From IMG/VR virus record IMGVR_UViG_2639762987_000002: a stretch of DNA of 64,000 nucleotides. One strand, written 5' to 3'. Made by a program: the position numbers and the translations under genes. The notes under the pieces were generated by a model, which was given only the letters and a program-made list of their open reading frames with translations, did not search any database and had not been told where the DNA came from. Shown here in pieces: positions 15,512-51,317 of the stretch (position 1 is its first letter; each line of letters begins with the position of its first letter). The stretch comes from a virus (taxonomy: Duplodnaviria; Heunggongvirae; Uroviricota; Caudoviricetes).

Positions 15512-15567
15512 CCTGCTTCTGTATATATAAATAATAAGTAACTTATTAAATATATACGGAAGCAGGC
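15512..15567. repeat. 56-bp near-perfect palindrome, copy A
   Basis: cctgcttctgtatatataaataataagtaacttattaaatatatacggaagcagg; a second copy differing at one position lies at 47759-47813. Confidence 0.85.
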
Positions 15568-44502: not shown

Positions 44503-44886
44503 ATGCTGAACGAGAAACGTTCTATACAAACTATTCGCGATTGCACGAGTATTATCGAGACTCATGTGCTGAATCAGCACAAGCTTGAAGTACGTAAGCT
44601 CAATAATGACGCTATTGAACCGGAAGACTCACGCTTCATCGTTACCTTCAAAGACGATGTTGAGCGCGCTGGTGCAAGCGTGAAGCCATTAGCTGAAGCA
44701 ATTTACCTGAATGGTCGTGTTCGTTTTGTAGTCAAGCCAGCTAAACAGTACCCTGAGCTGTCTCGTTTTATCGAGGCTTTTTCGGAGGTTATTGAACATT
44801 CTATTCGCCGCTTCTTACGCAATCATGGTAGCATTGTCAGCACGGTTAAGGCTGATGATTCTGCTACAAAATGGCTCCTACACTAG
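44503..44886 (+). CDS. hypothetical protein (127 aa)
   Basis: ORF with RBS aaggtgg. Confidence 0.55.
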   Translation: MLNEKRSIQTIRDCTSIIETHVLNQHKLEVRKLNNDAIEPEDSRFIVTFKDDVERAGASVKPLAEAIYLNGRVRFVVKPAKQYPELSRFIEAFSEVIEHSIRRFLRNHGSIVSTVKADDSATKWLLH

Positions 44887-45623
44887 ATAGCGCATATTCA
44901 AAAGATCTAAGCGAGTTTCCTCATAAAGGGGAGACTCGTGTTGTTCGTTTTGGCTTTCTTATCAATGAAGCCTCCCTCTATAAAATCTCAGAAATTGAAA
45001 TCATTGAACCAGAAGATGACATTTGCCTGTATGTCTCTATGGAACTTGTAGGTGCGCGCGACCAAGGCGACCTGAGCGAATTCATCTTAGATCGAGCGGA
45101 TGAAGATGCCCCTGAAGAAGAGATTATCAAAGAGGTGCTCCAGTCCGGGCTTCTGGACGAAAACAAAAATACGATCGCTGGTAGGATAGCTCTGCGTGAA
45201 TATAGTTTTGTTGAAGACGGTAATGAGATCGAATGTTACCAGGTAGCCGGTGTCGAAACTGTCAGAGAGCGTCGTCAGCGAGGATTGTGTCACCGTACCT
45301 ATCTCTTTCTTCTTCATTGGTATGAGCATTTAGTCTGCGACGATACACAAACCATTCCTGGTGCTAAGATCTGGGCAGGGCCTCTCATGCGAACCGGCGA
45401 TGTGCGTATATACAATGCCAAAACAGAAACGTTCGAGGATGTGTTAGGTGAGTACGGGATGGGGAAAGAAACCGGATTTTTGCCGTGGAACAGAGGATTG
45501 TTGCTTGATGCAGAGTTAAGCTCTTGGCTCCCAAACAAAGTGCAAGTTAACGTTCAGAAATTTATCGTACTTATCATCTCCCGCAAAACAAGAACTCCAG
45601 TAGGTTTATACCTAAAAGATTAA
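44871..45623 (+). CDS. hypothetical protein (250 aa)
   Basis: ORF overlapping the upstream gene by 16 nt. Confidence 0.55.
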   Translation: MAPTLDSAYSKDLSEFPHKGETRVVRFGFLINEASLYKISEIEIIEPEDDICLYVSMELVGARDQGDLSEFILDRADEDAPEEEIIKEVLQSGLLDENKNTIAGRIALREYSFVEDGNEIECYQVAGVETVRERRQRGLCHRTYLFLLHWYEHLVCDDTQTIPGAKIWAGPLMRTGDVRIYNAKTETFEDVLGEYGMGKETGFLPWNRGLLLDAELSSWLPNKVQVNVQKFIVLIISRKTRTPVGLYLKD

Positions 45624-45799: not shown

Positions 45800-46468
45800 A
45801 TGACCAAGATCTTTGTGGTTGGCGGCACAAAGGGCGGGCCTGGCAAATCCACCGTTGCCCAGCAAATTGCCGTTTGCCTGAAAGTCAAAAAGAAGAAGAA
45901 GGTTTATATCACTGATATAGATATTCAGCGCACGACAACAAGCTGGTGTGAAGACCGTCGACAGAACGAAGACCTTGAGCTGATTCCTTTTGCATACGTT
46001 CAGGATGACATCATTAAGCACCTAAAATCGCTTCAGGGTAGAGCTGAGTTTGTAGTGGTAGATGCTGGTGGCTTCGACTCCGAAATTCAGCGACAAGCGA
46101 TGCTGATGGCTGACGTTATCATTATCCCGCTGCGTCCTAAGCGTCGTGATTTGAAATCTTTACGTGACATCGATCCTATTATCGACAATGTTCGCAATGT
46201 AAACGATAAAGTGAAGGTCCGCGCGGTCATGAACCAGTGCCCGGCTTTGCCATCACAAGTGTCTCGCATTCTGGCGGCTAAAGAGATTGTTGAGACGTTT
46301 GGCATCGAGTCTGCGCCAGTCAATCTATATAACCGCAACGTCTATGATGATGCGGAAGAGTCTGGTCGTTCTATCTTTGAAATGACCGGTAGCGAGCGCG
46401 ACAAAAAGGCGGAAGCCGAGTTTGAAGAATTTGTAGATTATCTGTTGAGTCTGGAGGAAGAAGAATAA
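45800..46468 (+). CDS. parA: ParA/ParF-type partition ATPase (222 aa)
   Basis: Deviant Walker A GGTKGGPGKST; followed by a small RHH protein; motif-1 upstream. Confidence 0.8.
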   Translation: MTKIFVVGGTKGGPGKSTVAQQIAVCLKVKKKKKVYITDIDIQRTTTSWCEDRRQNEDLELIPFAYVQDDIIKHLKSLQGRAEFVVVDAGGFDSEIQRQAMLMADVIIIPLRPKRRDLKSLRDIDPIIDNVRNVNDKVKVRAVMNQCPALPSQVSRILAAKEIVETFGIESAPVNLYNRNVYDDAEESGRSIFEMTGSERDKKAEAEFEEFVDYLLSLEEEE

Positions 46469-46827
46469 TGTCCATGAAAATGGGTGACCTAGCAAAGCGC
46501 AAAGAGCCTGATGCACCGGCTAAGAACACAACTCCTTTGCGCCAACCAGTCAGACCACAGGGACGCCCGACTCGTGGCAAAGAGAAAATTAAAAGCCGCA
46601 CAATGTCACTGGAGGACGAATACTTCGAACTGCTGGAGATGATGAAGTTCATCCCTCGCTTCGAGAAGTTCACTCGTTCTGACGTGATTCGAGCAGCCAT
46701 TTTCCATCTGGCAGAGAAGTCACCGCAGGAAATCGAGGACATCGTGAAATTGAATGAGGCGATCACCGCTGCCGATGTCACGATGCGTACCGATGAAATT
46801 AAACGAGAGTTGATGAAGAAAGGTTAA
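46468..46827 (+). CDS. ParG-like ribbon-helix-helix centromere-binding protein (119 aa)
   Basis: C-terminal RHH-like segment, basic disordered N-terminus, start overlaps parA stop. Confidence 0.65.
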   Translation: MSMKMGDLAKRKEPDAPAKNTTPLRQPVRPQGRPTRGKEKIKSRTMSLEDEYFELLEMMKFIPRFEKFTRSDVIRAAIFHLAEKSPQEIEDIVKLNEAITAADVTMRTDEIKRELMKKG

Positions 46828-46828
46828 A

Positions 46829-46868
46829 AGTTATGCATTGGCGCAATGTACGCGCCAATGCATAACTA
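46829..46868. terminator. Perfect 15-bp-arm inverted repeat, probable bidirectional terminator
   Basis: gttatgcattggcgc aatgtac gcgccaatgcataac between convergent genes. Confidence 0.55.
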
Positions 46869-46879
46869 CAGTGTCAGCT

Positions 46880-47647
46880 TTATGCCGCGCTAACACTATG
46901 TTCAGTCCTAACCACCCCAACCTTCACAAAAGGGCTACCGTAGCTTGGTGGCTTCTTGATTAATTTGCCTACATACAGTTTTCTAATATGCTCATCGGCT
47001 ATTCTGCCAACAAATTCATAACGTTTTGTGTCGGGGCCAAGAGCTATATCCCTTGTAAAGTACTGCTGAGAACCGGCTTTGACCCAGCATTCAATCTGAT
47101 AAACTTCCATTATCAGCCCACCATATGTAGCGTAGGCATATTTGAGATTCTCGTCTCTTGGAACCTTTGCCCATACGCCACGCGTAGCTTCATATAATGC
47201 CAGAGCGGACATTCCTGACTTGTAGGTGCTGTTTAGCAGGAAGGCAAGACCGGCGTGCTCAGGAGCAATTTCAGTTTCCTCTTGCAGCACTAAGTGATGG
47301 TAGGCGTCCAGTGATATTCTGCCCATCATGGAACCACTTCCTCGTACCTTATTCGTAAGCTCTCCGACCCCCATAAGGTCGATGCATGTCGCCTCAACAA
47401 GTTTGGCTGTGGTTTCATCCATACCATGACGAAGTATATCTATGCCTAATTTTTTATTAGCCAAAAGTTCTTTGATCCGCATGGATTTGGGAGAGTCATC
47501 GGGATACTTGATGTGATCGAGACAACGAGTCGATTTGCCTTTTCCTATGTAAAACGGTCTTTTCATCTTGTCTTCTGTATCATAGAGACAGTAAACATAG
47601 TATTTAGCCTTATCCAATGATCTCGCGTATACCGATAAATCGTCCAT
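46880..47647 (-). CDS. GIY-YIG domain protein, free-standing endonuclease-like (255 aa)
   Basis: N-terminal YVYCLYD...(11 aa)...FYIGKGK fits the GIY-(x9-11)-YIG motif; lone minus-strand gene between large palindromes. Confidence 0.6.
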   Translation of the reverse strand: MDDLSVYARSLDKAKYYVYCLYDTEDKMKRPFYIGKGKSTRCLDHIKYPDDSPKSMRIKELLANKKLGIDILRHGMDETTAKLVEATCIDLMGVGELTNKVRGSGSMMGRISLDAYHHLVLQEETEIAPEHAGLAFLLNSTYKSGMSALALYEATRGVWAKVPRDENLKYAYATYGGLIMEVYQIECWVKAGSQQYFTRDIALGPDTKRYEFVGRIADEHIRKLYVGKLIKKPPSYGSPFVKVGVVRTEHSVSAA

Positions 47648-47758
47648 TATTGCATCTCTTTGCTACTGACTAATGCGTTCTATTTTACACATAAGTTTTT
47701 AATCAATTTAACAGGCTCAAAGTGTAGAGCTTCTGGGCGTCTAAGACGACAAGTTATG

Positions 47759-47813
47759 CCTGTTTCTGTATATATAAATAATAAGTAACTTATTAAATAT
47801 ATACGGAAGCAGG
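47759..47813. repeat. 55-bp near-perfect palindrome, copy B
   Basis: cctgtttctgtatatataaataataagtaacttattaaatatatacggaagcagg; one difference from copy A. Confidence 0.85.
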
Positions 47814-47920
47814 TCTTTTAAAAGACACCACCAGAACAACTCCCTTCCGTTTCCACTTCCAAAAACTGCCACCAGTCGCTATCATCCGCTCATTGTGATA
47901 AGTAAGTAACTACCTACCAG

Positions 47921-48670
47921 GTGAGCCACATGAGCCAAATCTTTTTCGATACCATCGACAACGACCAGTACGACTTCATGACAGAGTGGAATACCGCTGT
48001 TATGGACAAGTGGGTCGCTGAAAACATTGGTTTGTCGCGCTGTAAAGACGAGGCTGAACTCTTCGAGACGAAGTGGTTTGATTACCGCGACATGCATCCT
48101 CTCATGGCCACCTGTCTTTTTACGGAGGCATACAAACGTCAGTACTCAAATATCATGCTGACGCACGGTCGCGAACACTTTGAAACAGCTCCGTTCACCA
48201 CCGGGTTAAAACGCCTGCCTTATCAGGAGTTGTCGACTGCCAATAAAACGTCGCTATGGAAAGCACGCCAGTTTGCGGATCGCTATTGCTGCTCATACGA
48301 CTACTTTATCTCCACCGTTCTTTCCGCAGCTGCACGACGGCTGTGGGACAAGCTGCCGCGCCCACAGCATTTGTGGCAGCCAGAACTGATTGAGATATTT
48401 GAAGAGAAATTAGCCAGACGCGCAACAACCCGTCTGGATGACTCTCTGGTTAGCTTTAAGCATATGGGAGACATGCAGTTCAACCCGATTCAGGAAAGCT
48501 ATTTTGAGTGGATTCTGGAGCGTTTGCGCACCATCCCTCGCAGCAAGCGCATACGCGCAATTTTCTCCGCTATCTGGCTAATGGAAATCGTTCCAGAGCG
48601 CCTTATTTCCGCCCACTTTCCAGAAGAACTGGAAGAAGCACGGCGGTTTATTGATCCCCTATCTAATTAA
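47921..48670 (+). CDS. hypothetical protein, first gene of replication module (249 aa)
   Basis: ORF; motif-2 upstream. Confidence 0.55.
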   Translation: MSHMSQIFFDTIDNDQYDFMTEWNTAVMDKWVAENIGLSRCKDEAELFETKWFDYRDMHPLMATCLFTEAYKRQYSNIMLTHGREHFETAPFTTGLKRLPYQELSTANKTSLWKARQFADRYCCSYDYFISTVLSAAARRLWDKLPRPQHLWQPELIEIFEEKLARRATTRLDDSLVSFKHMGDMQFNPIQESYFEWILERLRTIPRSKRIRAIFSAIWLMEIVPERLISAHFPEELEEARRFIDPLSN

Positions 48671-48713
48671 CTAATACTAGAAAACAATTTGTTTAAAAAA
48701 CAAAGGAAAGCAC

Positions 48714-50054
48714 ATGACCGAACTTTGCCATACAGGACGCGGGCTGTCCGAAGAGTTTGATGAAGATTTCCAGAACAGACTGACGGCATATTTTTGTCGT
48801 GATCACGAGTTTCTTACTCGTGCGGGAGATCTGGTTGTGCCTAGCCAGTTTGCCAATGCGGCCAATGCCATATTGGTTAATATGGTTTCGGGCTATTACC
48901 GTATGTACAAGAGCGCGCCCTCTTCATCTGCAATTCTGGATATGCTTAAGCGTGCGAAACGCGATAAGACTATCCGTGAGGAACTATTCGCCGATGTTGT
49001 TGCTGCGTTTAAGCGCATTCTTGCAGAAAAATTGTCCGATACCTCGTACATGGTTGACCAGGTATCAACCTTCGCAAAAAGTGTAGCGTTTGATGATGCT
49101 CTGATTAAGGCTGCTGAACTGAAAGAGAAAGGCGACTTTCAGGGGGCGATGGCAATCATGGCCAAGGTTCAGCAGATTGGATCGAACGAAGCGACCGGAA
49201 TCTATGACTACTACACCTCCGCAAGTGAGCGATTGAAAGCGCGTGAATATGAGGCTTCAGAGGAGTATGTACCAAACAGTATTACAACTGGACTCCCTCT
49301 TCTCGATAGGTTGCTGTACCAAAAAGGCTGGGCAAAGCGCGAAATGGTGCTCTTCATGGGGTTCGCTAAATCCGGTAAATCGACCGCAATGGGTGAGTTT
49401 TCCATAAACGCAACGCTTGCTGGCTACAATGTTCTGTATCTCTCGCTGGAGGTTCACACCACCATTTTATCCGACCGTTTTGATGCAAGATTGTCGGAGA
49501 CAGAAATGTCCAAGCTGGTGGAACGGCGCGATGAGGTTCATCGTAAGTTGGCAGAGTTGGGAGCCACGAAGGGGATTGGTAGTTTGTGGGTGGTTGAGCG
49601 TCCGTCAGGAAGTATGTCACCGGCAGATCTGGACCGTATGCTTAACAGCATGAAAGCCAACGGCATGGTACCTGACATGGTTGTTGTCGACTACGCAGAT
49701 TTGATGCGTGCCAGTTATGACCTTCGTGATGATCGCGCCAACATTCGTAGTATCTACACCGATTTACGTGCTCTTTATGACAAGCATAACGTTGCTGGGA
49801 TCACGGCATCGCAGACAAACCGTGAAGGTGGCGCGTCAGAAGTTGCCACAATGATGCACGCTGCCGACAACATCGAAAAAGTACGTATTGCTGACCTGGT
49901 AATAACGATCAACAAAACCGAAGAAGAAGAAGCGAAAGGAGAGGCTCGTCTCTACTTTGCCGGTTCACGTAACCAGCAGGGAGGGATCAGCATTCGCGTT
50001 AAACAAAACCTCGAACAAATGCGCTTCATTGAGCGAATCTTAGACGTTACCTAA
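48714..50054 (+). CDS. DnaB-like replicative helicase (446 aa)
   Basis: C-terminal RecA-like core: Walker A GFAKSGKST, Walker B MVVVDYADLM; motif-1 18 nt upstream. Confidence 0.75.
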   Translation: MTELCHTGRGLSEEFDEDFQNRLTAYFCRDHEFLTRAGDLVVPSQFANAANAILVNMVSGYYRMYKSAPSSSAILDMLKRAKRDKTIREELFADVVAAFKRILAEKLSDTSYMVDQVSTFAKSVAFDDALIKAAELKEKGDFQGAMAIMAKVQQIGSNEATGIYDYYTSASERLKAREYEASEEYVPNSITTGLPLLDRLLYQKGWAKREMVLFMGFAKSGKSTAMGEFSINATLAGYNVLYLSLEVHTTILSDRFDARLSETEMSKLVERRDEVHRKLAELGATKGIGSLWVVERPSGSMSPADLDRMLNSMKANGMVPDMVVVDYADLMRASYDLRDDRANIRSIYTDLRALYDKHNVAGITASQTNREGGASEVATMMHAADNIEKVRIADLVITINKTEEEEAKGEARLYFAGSRNQQGGISIRVKQNLEQMRFIERILDVT

Positions 50055-50060
50055 AAAATA

Positions 50061-50083
50061 AGCGTGGAGAACACCTCCACGCT
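50061..50083 (+). terminator. stem-loop, weak terminator or attenuator
   Basis: 8-bp stem gcgtggag/ctccacgc; no clean T-run. Confidence 0.35.
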
Positions 50084-50135
50084 TGATTCATTGGTGAAAC
50101 AACTTTTCTTTTGCCAAACCACAAAAGAAAAACAC

Positions 50136-51317
50136 ATGAGCCTTTATGTTATATCAACATTTAGGTTGGTCACAATATTGCCTGTTAAAAGTGGAATTAT
50201 CGTGAGCGAGCTGAAAGAGCTAATTACCGAATTAGATTTTGAACAATGGTTGGATACTGAAGGTATCGTTTATCGACGTGGAGGCGTGAGTACTCGCGGT
50301 CGTGAAGTGAATATCAAGGAGTGTCCGGTATGCGGCAGCTCCAACTGGAAGGTATATTTCAATCTGACCAGTGGCGTCGGTAAATGCTTCGCTGGTGATC
50401 ATCCCGAAGAGATTCAGTTCAATAAGCTGGTCTTCCTCAAGCACTACAGCGGCAAATCACGACGACAGTTCGAGGAATATGTGCAGAACGCCCTTCTTTC
50501 CCAGGGGTGGGCACCAAAGAAAGAAGAGCTAGTGCTTGCAAGCACAGTCGAGTTAGAGGAGCCAGTTGCACTCCCTCGTCATTACGAGCTTCCTATAGAT
50601 GGCCGTCTTCCAGACTATCTGGTTGAACGAAACATATCGCCTGAAATGGCAAAGTATTTTGACCTACGATACTGCGTCGAAGGCAAGCACGCCTATGTAG
50701 ATCCGTATACAGATCAGGTTAAAGGACAGATATTCGATATGCGAATACTGATACCGGTTTACGATCTGGATGGGGTAATGAAGACATTTCAGGGACGAGA
50801 CATTACCGGTACAGCAGAACGCCGCTACCTCTTTCCTATGCAACTTCCAGCTTCAGGTAAGTTTCTCTACAACGGCCATAATGCAGTCGGCAAACAGACT
50901 GTAGTTGTCTGTGAGGGGGCGTTCGATGTTATGGGGGTTAAACGAGCTATTTTTGACGAAGAAACATTACGTGATTACGTGGAACCAATAGGAACGTTCG
51001 GGATGCATCTATCTGGTAACACCACTCAGGATGCAGAAGATCAGTTAGGCGCGTTCCTGACGCTCAAGGCGCGTGGATTACGTAATGTGATCATGATGTG
51101 GGATAGTGAAAAGCAAGCTATACGCAACACGATGGCCGCAGCCAGGCGACTGACCAGTATCGGTCTTAATGTCAAAGTTGCGTGTTTGGGTGAGGAAGGA
51201 CTCGACCCGGGCGGTGCAACGCCAGAACAAATTATCAAAGCCTATTATCGGGCAAAACCGTATACCAAACAGTTGGAGTTGCAAAGCAAGGTTTTGGGCA
51301 TTAAGGCTCTATCATAA
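50136..51317 (+). CDS. DNA primase, zinc-binding plus TOPRIM (393 aa)
   Basis: CPVCGSSNWKVYFNLTSGVGKCFAGDH zinc-ribbon and TOPRIM VVVCEGAFDVMG; start moved to ATG 50136 because the listed 50064 start lies in the upstream hairpin. Confidence 0.75.
   Translation: MSLYVISTFRLVTILPVKSGIIVSELKELITELDFEQWLDTEGIVYRRGGVSTRGREVNIKECPVCGSSNWKVYFNLTSGVGKCFAGDHPEEIQFNKLVFLKHYSGKSRRQFEEYVQNALLSQGWAPKKEELVLASTVELEEPVALPRHYELPIDGRLPDYLVERNISPEMAKYFDLRYCVEGKHAYVDPYTDQVKGQIFDMRILIPVYDLDGVMKTFQGRDITGTAERRYLFPMQLPASGKFLYNGHNAVGKQTVVVCEGAFDVMGVKRAIFDEETLRDYVEPIGTFGMHLSGNTTQDAEDQLGAFLTLKARGLRNVIMMWDSEKQAIRNTMAAARRLTSIGLNVKVACLGEEGLDPGGATPEQIIKAYYRAKPYTKQLELQSKVLGIKALS

What the first reader, a model, noticed from the sequence alone, without database searches (positions are those of the whole stretch)
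46880..47647. Free-standing GIY-YIG gene on the opposite strand, flanked by large palindromes
The protein has a GIY-YIG-like N-terminus (YVYCLYD...FYIGKGK) and is the only minus-strand gene in a long + strand region, lying between a perfect 15-bp-arm hairpin (46829-46868) and the 55-bp palindrome copy B. This layout is typical of intron-less homing endonuclease insertions; it could alternatively be a nuclease effector.
Basis: partly seen in the sequence, partly recalled or inferred. Interest (0 to 1): 0.45.

Follow-up and report, generated by a model that had tools for sequence, protein, structure and literature searches.

The report
Phage-plasmid cargo: modified-DNA defence nuclease
The minus-strand GIY-YIG gene is real, but it is most likely not a homing endonuclease: it is a divergent, untested member of the PD-T4-3/CMoRE family of anti-phage nucleases that cut chemically modified phage DNA, carried as swappable cargo in a variable slot of an E. 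coli SSU5-like phage-plasmid.

Summary
A 255-aa ORF lies on the minus strand at 46880-47647, it is the only real minus-strand gene in about 42 kb, a perfect hairpin follows its stop codon, and a 55-bp palindrome lies upstream.

The gene sits in a 0.93-kb cassette between the parA/119-aa-gene pair and the replication genes. In relatives the same slot holds DUF2971/PDC-S31-like, KAP-NTPase/PDC-S49-like or unknown genes, or is nearly empty. The palindrome belongs to the backbone and is a second copy of a palindrome that is split by the ends of the SSU5 and Cyrano virion records. DefenseFinder calls of PD-T4-3 on SSU5-group phage-plasmids are already published. Verdict: a new, untested member of a known kind, of low to moderate interest.

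The parts
46880..47647 (-). CDS of 255 aa: a PD-T4-3/CMoRE-family nuclease (the stop codon is 46880-46882).
   Evidence: ORF list. PADLOC PD-T4-3: E 1.3e-23, residues 11-231 against model positions 11-238 of 256. phmmer to PDB 9u7u and 9u75: E 2e-15. hhalign: 99.3%. An identical protein cluster has 372 member sequences and is named 'LEM-3-like GIY-YIG domain-containing protein'.
47366..47608 (-). [quoted passage not shown] Motif Y17-V-Y19 ... F32-Y33-I-G-K-G-K, with R41, E85 and N99.
47324..47365 (-). Flexible inter-domain linker (about residues 95-108).
   Evidence: pLDDT is below 50 for residues 95-108. The corresponding linker is disordered in the CMoRE crystals (PMC12923530).
46913..47323 (-). 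C-terminal PUA-like reader domain (about residues 109-245), homologous to the 5hmC-sensing domain of CMoRE.
46829..46867 (.). Perfect 16-nt-arm hairpin between the convergent 119-aa gene and the nuclease gene. It is the probable 3'-end or terminator hairpin, chiefly for the minus-strand transcript.
   Evidence: On the minus strand it is followed by UUUUAACCUUUCUU; on the plus strand there is no U tract. It misses the simple terminator scan. Every cassette type has its own, different hairpin at this same position.
47648..47758 (-). Cassette-specific upstream region of the nuclease gene. It is presumed to hold the gene's own promoter and 5' UTR. It is AT-rich, with GC about 0.37.
   Evidence: It lies inside the variable segment. 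GC profile. No consensus sigma-70 site passes the scan, so the promoter is inferred and not shown.
46826..47758 (.). The whole variable cassette: hairpin, gene and upstream region.
   Evidence: Homology with phages Cyrano and SSU5 stops at 46825 and resumes at 47749-47759. The cassette is 95% or more identical in 135 PLSDB plasmids.
47759..47813 (.). 55-bp palindrome B. It is a conserved backbone element that forms the right border of the slot and is not part of the cassette.
   Evidence: It is present in Cyrano, in SSU5, in all other cassette types and in the 'empty' alleles. The outer arms CCTGYTTCYGTAT / ATACRGAARCAGG are conserved and the AT-rich centre varies.
45800..46827 (+). Left backbone flank: parA (222 aa) plus a 119-aa gene (probable partition partner). 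The slot begins at the stop codon of the 119-aa gene.
   Evidence: Pfam MipZ, AAA_31 and ParA hits. phrog_5111. Identical 119-aa proteins flank different cassettes.
47921..50054 (+). Right backbone flank: a 249-aa gene (phrog_2500) and a DnaB-like helicase. The primase follows at 50064-51317.

Best explanation
[quoted passage not shown] It is carried as accessory cargo by an SSU5/pSLy3-like phage-plasmid of E. coli.

Mechanism inferred by homology. The C-terminal PUA-like domain binds flipped-out hypermodified bases in incoming phage DNA. In the characterised enzymes these are 5hmC and glucosyl-5hmC, and in one homologue also the N6-carbamoylmethyl-adenine of phage Mu. The N-terminal GIY-YIG domain (Y17, Y19, Y33, R41, E85, N99) then cuts the DNA, probably acting as an oligomer. 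The unmodified DNA of the host and of the phage-plasmid is spared, so the element protects its host, and itself, against T-even-like phages without killing the cell.

The gene forms a self-contained unit with its own upstream region and its own 3' hairpin. It is transcribed against the backbone, in a slot between the partition genes and the replication genes that exchanges cargo by recombination in the conserved flanks.

What is shown: the homology, the fold, conservation of the catalytic residues, the cassette borders, and the alternative occupants of the slot.
What is inferred: the nuclease activity, dependence on modification, the exact modification recognised, the promoter and terminator functions, and the defence phenotype.
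For: Homology.
- PADLOC PD-T4-3 full-length hit, E 1.3e-23.
- phmmer to 9u7u and 9u75, E 2e-15, covering residues 12-230.
- BLASTP 32% identity over 237 columns.
- hhalign probability 99.3%, E 7e-21, 209 columns.

Structure.
- The AlphaFold2 model has pLDDT 83 and shows two domains with a disordered linker.
- The top four Foldseek hits are the PD-T4-3 crystal structures, E 3e-12 to 1e-10.

Residues. The YxY...YIG motif, R41, E85 and N99 are invariant across 43 homologues and both CMoRE sequences.

Family function. The family has been shown experimentally to be a nuclease specific for 5hmC/5ghmC DNA that protects against T2, T4 and T6 by direct defence (PMC12923530). A homologue with 48% identity to PD-T4-3 also acts on modified DNA (PMC12366544). 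A native E. coli copy is active in its own host (bioRxiv 10.1101/2024.12.20.629700).

Single-gene habit. Homologues of 59-77% identity sit alone in unrelated chromosomal contexts.

Slot turnover, among 80 IMG/VR loci that carry the 119-aa gene.
- This gene: 28 loci, always on the minus strand.
- An unknown 352-aa gene: 18 loci (4 of these also carry DUF2971).
- DUF2971/PDC-S31-like: about 19 loci in all, some combined with other cargo.
- KAP-NTPase/PDC-S49-like gene set: 7 loci.
- SSU5_035/036: 7 loci.
- No recognised gene: 7 loci, of which 3 are nearly empty alleles with only 30 nt.
- Identical flanking proteins carry different cassettes.

Prior report. DefenseFinder calls of PD-T4-3 on SSU5-group phage-plasmids of E. 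coli and Shigella.
Against: - Identity to any tested enzyme is only about 32%, so activity and specificity are extrapolated.
- The acidic 'safety-catch' loop (VDDDE/ADDDD in CMoRE) is 5-6 residues shorter here (YPDDSPKS). It is not conserved as acidic in this clade. Self/non-self control may therefore differ.
- No consensus promoter or terminator passes the simple scans.
- The other occupants of the slot are only candidate defence genes (PADLOC 'PDC') or are unknown. 'Defence hotspot' is therefore an inference.
- Nothing here shows that the gene is expressed in the plasmid-prophage state.
Confidence: 0.8

Rival explanations
1. Free-standing GIY-YIG homing endonuclease. The enzyme would cut a specific site in related phage-plasmids that lack it, and the gene would be copied in by recombinational repair.
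For: - Opposite orientation to the backbone and a compact insert between conserved genes.
- Presence/absence polymorphism among close relatives.
- Three nearly empty alleles exist.
- Distant homologues (28-33% identity) in jumbo phages are annotated by their depositors as 'putative homing nuclease'.
Against: - No NUMOD, IENR1, HTH or zinc-finger DNA-binding module. The C-terminal domain is a PUA-like base reader homologous to the CMoRE sensing domain.
- The closest homologues are solitary chromosomal genes in unrelated loci.
- The gene-less alleles carry other cargo. The 'empty' ones retain about 25 nt of the 3' end of the DUF2971 cassette, so they are deletion derivatives and not a naive target site.
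- Characterised family members have a loose site requirement (CN11/N9G with two modified cytosines) and degrade the whole T4 genome.
Confidence: 0.05
2. A CMoRE-like enzyme with a different target or a different control. Because the acidic lid is missing and the reader domain has diverged, this clade may recognise another DNA modification (for example modified adenines, deazaguanines or other hypermodified pyrimidines). It may instead restrain its nuclease by some other means.
For: - About 32% identity to tested enzymes.
- The lid is shortened and not conserved as acidic. The clade also has specific insertions and deletions: YKSGM is present and the HVIH beta-hairpin is absent.
- A homologue with 48% identity to PD-T4-3 already shows plasticity, acting on both glucosyl-hmC DNA and Mu mom-modified adenine.
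- The family is large and diverse: 1781 clusters at 50% identity with E <= 1e-3.
Against: Many reader-domain positions are shared with CMoRE (H131, N139, R156, W159, W188, R209, F212, G214, Y225, G227). T-even phages are the obvious modified-DNA threat in E. coli. The paper reports that most, but not all, family members have the lid.
Confidence: 0.12
3. A plasmid-maintenance or housekeeping nuclease. Examples would be an addiction toxin placed next to the partition genes, or a UvrC/LEM-3-like repair or resolution nuclease of the phage-plasmid.
For: The gene is located directly beside parA and the 119-aa gene and upstream of the replication genes. The Pfam label is 'LEM-3-like GIY-YIG'. Another variable slot nearby holds a KacT toxin-antitoxin pair in phage Cyrano.
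Against: - No antitoxin-like partner lies inside the cassette.
- The gene is dispensable: roughly half of related E. coli elements have other cargo in the slot.
- The full-length homology is to a defence enzyme, not only to the catalytic domain.
- Chromosomal homologues are not linked to plasmid functions.
Confidence: 0.03

Closest known systems
CMoRE / PD-T4-3 of E. coli O157:H7 and APEC O1 (PDB 9U75, 9U8D, 9U7U, 9U7Z; Liu et al., Nat Commun 2026, PMC12923530). The system was first found in ECOR68.
   Same: - Single gene of about 255 aa.
- N-terminal GIY-YIG domain with the extra tyrosine ('GIYxY-YIG'), and the catalytic Arg, Glu and Asn.
- Disordered linker.
- Homologous C-terminal reader domain.
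- Full-length alignment.
   Different: - Only about 32% identity.
- The acidic autoinhibitory alpha2-alpha3 loop is 5-6 residues shorter, has two instead of four acidic residues, and is not conserved in this clade.
- Several insertions and deletions.
- Here the gene is carried on a phage-plasmid.
- Activity, specificity and oligomeric state are untested.
PD-T4-3Capno (Capnocytophaga homologue; Cell Host Microbe 2025, PMC12366544)
   Same: The same family. It shows that distant members (48% identity to PD-T4-3) remain anti-phage nucleases that depend on DNA modification.
   Different: It comes from another phylum. It also cuts mom-modified Mu DNA.
Other type IV modification-dependent restriction enzymes built from a PUA-like/EVE/YTH/SRA reader plus a nuclease (for example VcaM4I, McrBC with its N-terminal reader, PvuRts1I/AbaSI)
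   Different: The nuclease domains differ (HNH, PD-(D/E)xK or Vsr-like, against GIY-YIG here). There is no detectable sequence homology.
Free-standing GIY-YIG homing endonucleases (I-TevI, T4 Seg proteins) and T4 EndoII
   Different: There is no sequence-specific DNA-binding domain, and there is no cognate empty target site in relatives. The closest homologues are chromosomal.
Defence-cargo hotspots of temperate mobile elements (P2/P4 hotspots, NAR 2026 PMC13586616; defence systems on phage-plasmids, PMC11652158)
   Same: Conserved flanks with rapidly exchanged, mutually exclusive accessory cassettes. Several of them are known or candidate defence genes.
   Different: Here the slot lies between the partition module and the replication module of an SSU5-like phage-plasmid, and it is bordered by a palindrome that duplicates the one at the virion genome ends. 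I found no prior description of this particular slot, but my literature search was limited.

Membership tests
PD-T4-3 / CMoRE (type IV GIY-YIG modification-dependent restriction endonuclease) | Full-length match to the family profile | tested here: met
   PADLOC PDLC04031: E 1.3e-23, 81.9 bits, residues 11-231 of 255 against model positions 11-238 of 256. hhalign of the clade profile against O157:H7 CMoRE: 99.3%.
PD-T4-3 / CMoRE (type IV GIY-YIG modification-dependent restriction endonuclease) | Two-domain architecture: N-terminal GIY-YIG domain, flexible linker, C-terminal modification-sensing domain | tested here: met
PD-T4-3 / CMoRE (type IV GIY-YIG modification-dependent restriction endonuclease) | 'GIYxY-YIG' motif with the third tyrosine (Y17, Y19, Y31 in CMoRE) | tested here: met
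   Y17-V-Y19 and F32-Y33-I-G align with CMoRE and are invariant in 43 homologues.
PD-T4-3 / CMoRE (type IV GIY-YIG modification-dependent restriction endonuclease) | Catalytic Arg and Glu of the GIY-YIG active site (plus the conserved Asn) | tested here: met
   R41, E85 and N99 are invariant in the joint alignment.
PD-T4-3 / CMoRE (type IV GIY-YIG modification-dependent restriction endonuclease) | Negatively charged autoinhibitory alpha2-alpha3 loop with four consecutive acidic residues (present in 'most' members according to the paper) | tested here: not met
   The loop reads YPDDSPKS against GEVAAVDDDELL/GEVAAADDDDLL. It is 5-6 residues shorter and has two acidic residues. Other clade members have SDSPK, ESQEK, TETDK or KENKK at this position.
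PD-T4-3 / CMoRE (type IV GIY-YIG modification-dependent restriction endonuclease) | Single-component system (no obligatory partner gene) | tested here: met
   It is the only gene in the 0.93-kb cassette. Homologues are solitary in four unrelated chromosomal contexts.
PD-T4-3 / CMoRE (type IV GIY-YIG modification-dependent restriction endonuclease) | Cleavage dependent on 5hmC/5ghmC, and protection against T-even phages | not testable with these tools
   This needs plaque assays and in vitro nuclease assays. It is known only for relatives of about 32% identity.
PD-T4-3 / CMoRE (type IV GIY-YIG modification-dependent restriction endonuclease) | Tetrameric (dimer-of-dimers) assembly required for function | not tested
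   No multimer prediction was run.
Free-standing GIY-YIG homing endonuclease (I-TevI / Seg type) | GIY-YIG catalytic domain | tested here: met
Free-standing GIY-YIG homing endonuclease (I-TevI / Seg type) | C-terminal sequence-specific DNA-binding module (NUMOD, IENR1, HTH or zinc finger) | tested here: not met
   No such Pfam hit at E <= 0.1. The C-terminal domain is PUA-like and homologous to the CMoRE reader.
Free-standing GIY-YIG homing endonuclease (I-TevI / Seg type) | Relatives without the gene carry an intact cognate target site at the same junction | tested here: not met
   Among 80 related loci the slot holds other cargo. The three near-empty alleles keep a remnant of the DUF2971 cassette.
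T5orf172 domain (PF10544) | Profile match | tested here: not met
   No hit at E <= 0.1 in Pfam-A.
Pfam LEM-3-like GIY-YIG (PF22945) | Score above the gathering threshold | tested here: met
   30.1 bits against 27. The match covers residues 32-104 against model positions 28-108 of 151. This is a label for the catalytic domain only and says nothing about function.

The most novel reading that the evidence does not exclude
This abundant plasmid-borne clade would be a 'lid-less' CMoRE variant whose reader domain recognises a different DNA hypermodification, or which controls self-cleavage by a different mechanism. In addition, the junction between the partition and replication genes of SSU5-like phage-plasmids would be a dedicated exchange site for immunity cargo. 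Its fixed right border, a second copy of the palindrome found at the virion genome ends, would have a functional role (insulator, terminator, or binding site for a recombination or packaging protein) in cassette turnover.
Probability: 0.2. Interest if true: 0.45.

Novelty: new member of a known kind. Interest (0 to 1): 0.25.

Why it matters
About 2% of complete E. coli genomes (107 of 5,426) carry this gene, and in all of them it is on a plasmid. Roughly half of the E. coli SSU5/pSLy3-like plasmids in PLSDB carry the cassette.

If the protein works like CMoRE, these phage-plasmids give their hosts resistance to T-even-type phages. That matters for phage therapy and phage typing of clinical E. 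coli and Shigella lineages, in which such elements are common.

The clade is also a natural variant that lacks the acidic safety-catch. It could show how these enzymes avoid cutting self DNA, and it could widen the set of tools for mapping modified bases.

The finding is not a new kind of system. The family has been characterised structurally and biochemically, and defence-finder tools already label it on these elements.

Tried and rejected
1. Homing-endonuclease reading: rejected (see the rival explanations).
2. T5orf172 domain: no Pfam hit.
3. Palindrome B as part of the cassette or as a target site of the nuclease: rejected. It is conserved in all relatives whatever the cargo, and it has a twin at 15.5 kb.
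4. Target-site duplication. The 9-mer AAGTTATGC occurs exactly twice in the window, once at each cassette end. However, most cassette copies, including PhiR41_1 and L014, read AAATCATGC on the left. It is therefore not a conserved duplication, and I treat it as coincidence or a by-product of hairpin-arm correction.
5. Consensus promoter and terminator scan of 46400-48000: nothing was found, so the promoter and terminator roles remain inferences.
6. Rfam scan of 46400-48000: only a chance hit on the AT-rich palindrome (mir-1277, 21 bits against a gathering score of 81).
7. NCBIfam: no family for the protein.
8. Base composition: the cassette does not stand out from the backbone, apart from its AT-rich upstream region.
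9. I looked for canonical CMoRE (at least 80% identity) on SSU5-like plasmids. It is on only 12 plasmids; the two shown (a 257-kb and a 44-kb plasmid) did not look SSU5-like by size, and I did not examine their context further.
10. I tried to learn whether the experimentally tested NILS69 PD-T4-3 is this same protein. The paper's text gives no sequence or location.
11. The PADLOC scan of neighbouring backbone genes gave nothing meaningful.

Full report
**1. What is in the sequence**

The ORF at 46880-47647 on the minus strand is real. It is 255 aa long, starts with ATG, and begins MDDLSVYARSLDKAKYYVYCLYDTEDKMKRPFYIGKGK.

A perfect inverted repeat starts 12 nt after its stop codon. The arms are 46829-46844 and 46852-46867, 16 nt each, with a 7-nt loop. 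It folds at -28.9 kcal/mol on the minus-strand RNA (z = -6.6) and is followed there by UUUUAACCUUUCUU. On the plus strand no U tract follows it.

Upstream of the gene lies the 55-bp palindrome at 47759-47813. It has a near-identical twin at 15512-15566.

Between about 12.3 kb and 54 kb of the window, this is the only minus-strand ORF of at least 120 aa that is not nested in a longer plus-strand ORF. The annotation of a 98%-identical phage shows the same layout.

**2. Where the window comes from**

The region is 96-97% identical to Escherichia phages CMS-2020a, PhiR41_1 and Cyrano, and 82% identical to Salmonella phage SSU5. The window is therefore an SSU5/pSLy3-like phage-plasmid of E. coli.

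The gene lies between parA plus a 119-aa gene on the left and a 249-aa gene, a DnaB-like helicase and a primase on the right.

**3. What the protein is**

- Pfam gives only a marginal catalytic-domain hit: LEM-3-like GIY-YIG, 30.1 bits against a cut-off of 27. There is no T5orf172 hit.
- The PADLOC model of the single-gene defence system PD-T4-3 matches over the full length: E 1.3e-23, residues 11-231 against model positions 11-238 of 256.
- PD-T4-3 has recently been characterised as CMoRE, a type IV restriction endonuclease that degrades DNA containing 5hmC or glucosyl-5hmC. It protects E. coli against T2, T4 and T6 by direct defence. [quoted passage not shown]
- The window protein matches the CMoRE crystal chains 9u7u and 9u75 by sequence. 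phmmer gives E 2e-15 over residues 12-230, BLASTP gives 32% identity over 237 columns, and hhalign of a 43-sequence profile gives 99.3% probability and E 7e-21.
- An AlphaFold2 model (pLDDT 83.4, pTM 0.77) shows two domains joined by a low-confidence linker at residues 95-108.
- The top four Foldseek hits are the PD-T4-3 structures, at E 3e-12 to 1e-10. The global TM-score is low because the relative orientation of the two domains differs.
- In a joint alignment, Y17, Y19, F32, Y33, G35, G37, R41, H45, E85 and N99 are invariant. So are many reader-domain positions: H131, N139, R156, W159, W188, R209, F212, G214, Y225 and G227.
- The clear difference is the acidic lid. CMoRE has GEVAAVDDDELL or GEVAAADDDDLL, while this protein has YPDDSPKS. 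The loop is 5-6 residues shorter, and the position is not consistently acidic in this clade.

**4. Distribution of the gene**

- The exact protein heads a cluster of 372 member sequences.
- The gene is at least 99% identical in nearly all of the 107 complete E. coli genomes (of 5,426) that carry it, and it is always on plasmids.
- The cassette is in 135 PLSDB plasmids, nearly all from Escherichia and mostly about 100-115 kb.
- Homologues of 59-77% identity sit alone in chromosomes. In Salmonella the gene lies between a DUF5384 gene and guaA. In Providencia it lies near mutS and rpoS. In another genome it lies next to RelA/SpoT-domain genes and IS elements.
- The wider family has 1,781 clusters at 50% identity with E <= 1e-3. 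Most are about 240-265 aa long.
- Distant full-length homologues occur in Serratia jumbo phages.

**5. The slot**

Homology with Cyrano and SSU5 stops at window position 46825, just before the stop codon of the 119-aa gene. It resumes at 47749-47759, the outer edge of palindrome B. The variable cassette is therefore 46826-47758. It holds the hairpin, the gene and an AT-rich upstream region.

I surveyed 80 IMG/VR loci that encode the 119-aa protein at 91-100% identity. Counts are loci, and some loci carry two kinds of cargo. The slot holds:

| Cargo in the slot | Loci |
|---|---|
| This gene, always on the minus strand | 28 |
| An unknown 352-aa gene on the minus strand | 18 (4 of them also with DUF2971) |
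| DUF2971 (PDC-S31-like) genes | about 19 in all, some combined with other cargo |
| KAP-NTPase (PDC-S49-like) gene set | 7 |
| SSU5_035/036 | 7 |
| No recognised gene | 7 |

Three of the unrecognised loci have only 30 nt in the slot, and those 30 nt match the 3' end of the DUF2971 cassette. They are therefore deletion derivatives and not a naive target site.

Loci with identical 119-aa proteins carry different cassettes, so the cargo turns over quickly by exchange within conserved flanks.

Each cassette type begins with its own, different GC-rich hairpin directly after the stop codon of the 119-aa gene. A hairpin at the 3' end of the partition operon thus seems to be a requirement of this position, while its sequence travels with the cassette. 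In this cassette the hairpin sits between convergent genes and has the better U tract on the nuclease strand.

**6. Interpretation**

The best explanation is a defence nuclease of the PD-T4-3/CMoRE family that depends on DNA modification and is carried as exchangeable cargo by the phage-plasmid (confidence about 0.8).

Family membership is close to certain. The anti-phage role and the dependence on modification are inferred from tested relatives of about 32% identity. That the target is 5hmC or glucosyl-5hmC is plausible but uncertain, because one homologue already shows plasticity towards Mu's modified adenine (PMC12366544) and because the lid is missing here.

The homing-endonuclease reading fails on three tests: the C-terminal domain, the absence of a cognate empty site, and the chromosomal homologues. 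An addiction-toxin or repair role has little support.

**7. Novelty**

The family is known structurally and biochemically. A survey of clinical isolates already lists DefenseFinder 'PD-T4-3' calls on SSU5-group phage-plasmids of E. coli and Shigella (bioRxiv 10.1101/2025.09.12.675607).

What I add:
- This is a distinct, abundant, lid-less clade that has not been tested.
- It is a self-contained, antisense cassette.
- It occupies a defined exchange slot with at least five alternative contents.
- The 'flanking palindrome' is a backbone element.

I rate it a new member of a known kind, with interest about 0.25.

**8. Side observation**

The linear GenBank records of phages Cyrano and SSU5 begin and end inside palindrome copy A. 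The break falls at ...CTTATTAA | ATATATACGG... in Cyrano and one base earlier in SSU5. The site is about 117 bp upstream of the probable small and large terminase genes.

Copy A is therefore probably the packaging (cos) cleavage region. Copy B, at the border of the slot, is a second copy of unknown role.

Noticed in passing
window 15512-15566 (palindrome copy A) and 47759-47813 (copy B): The linear virion-genome records of phages Cyrano and SSU5 start and end inside palindrome copy A (...CTTATTAA | ATATATACGGAAGCAGG). The site is about 117 bp upstream of the probable small-terminase gene, which is followed by the large-terminase gene. Copy A therefore looks like the cos/packaging cleavage site. 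Copy B is a near-identical second copy 32 kb away, at the border between the 119-aa gene and the replication genes. It is conserved in all relatives (outer arms conserved, AT-rich centre variable). Its role is unknown: insulator or terminator, protein-binding site, or pseudo-cos.
   Followed up: partly
window 46845-46851 (hairpin loop); loci L001, L014-L093: Among copies of the cassette, the 7-nt loop of the perfect hairpin occurs in both orientations: GTACATT in 16 copies and its reverse complement AATGTAC in 9 copies, including this window. This suggests the loop flips between the 16-nt arms, by template switching or by recombination between the arms. In the window's variant the arms are perfect, whereas the commoner variant has two mismatches in the left arm.
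   Followed up: partly
L007 1289-2347 (-) (plasmid pECAZ162_2) and 17 other loci: A 352-aa protein with no Pfam or PADLOC match occupies the same slot, also on the minus strand, in 18 of the 80 related loci. It is a candidate for an unrecognised accessory or defence gene.
   Followed up: partly
window 44503-45623; L002 1299-2133 (Cyrano): There is a second variable slot just upstream of parA. The window and PhiR41_1 have two plus-strand genes of unknown function there (127 and 250 aa, with no Pfam or PADLOC hit). Cyrano has a minus-strand KacT-type acetyltransferase toxin with its antitoxin at the same place.
   Followed up: partly
phage records H114-H127 (for example Serratia phage Moabite NC_048792, 6439-7125): Full-length homologues (28-30% identity, covering both domains) of this nuclease are encoded by Serratia and Pectobacterium jumbo phages of about 255-280 kb. 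Depositors annotate them as GIY-YIG or homing nucleases. They may instead be weapons against competing phages that depend on DNA modification.
   Followed up: no
window 46828-46836 and 47751-47759: The 9-mer AAGTTATGC occurs exactly twice in the 64-kb window, once at each end of the cassette. Most other cassette copies lack the left copy (they read AAATCATGC), so it is probably not a target-site duplication.
   Followed up: yes
L048, L050, L058 (IMG/VR loci): These are nearly empty alleles of the slot. Only 30 nt separate the stop codon of the 119-aa gene from palindrome B, and those 30 nt match the 3' end of the DUF2971 cassette. This suggests that DUF2971 was the earlier occupant and was later deleted.
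   Followed up: yes
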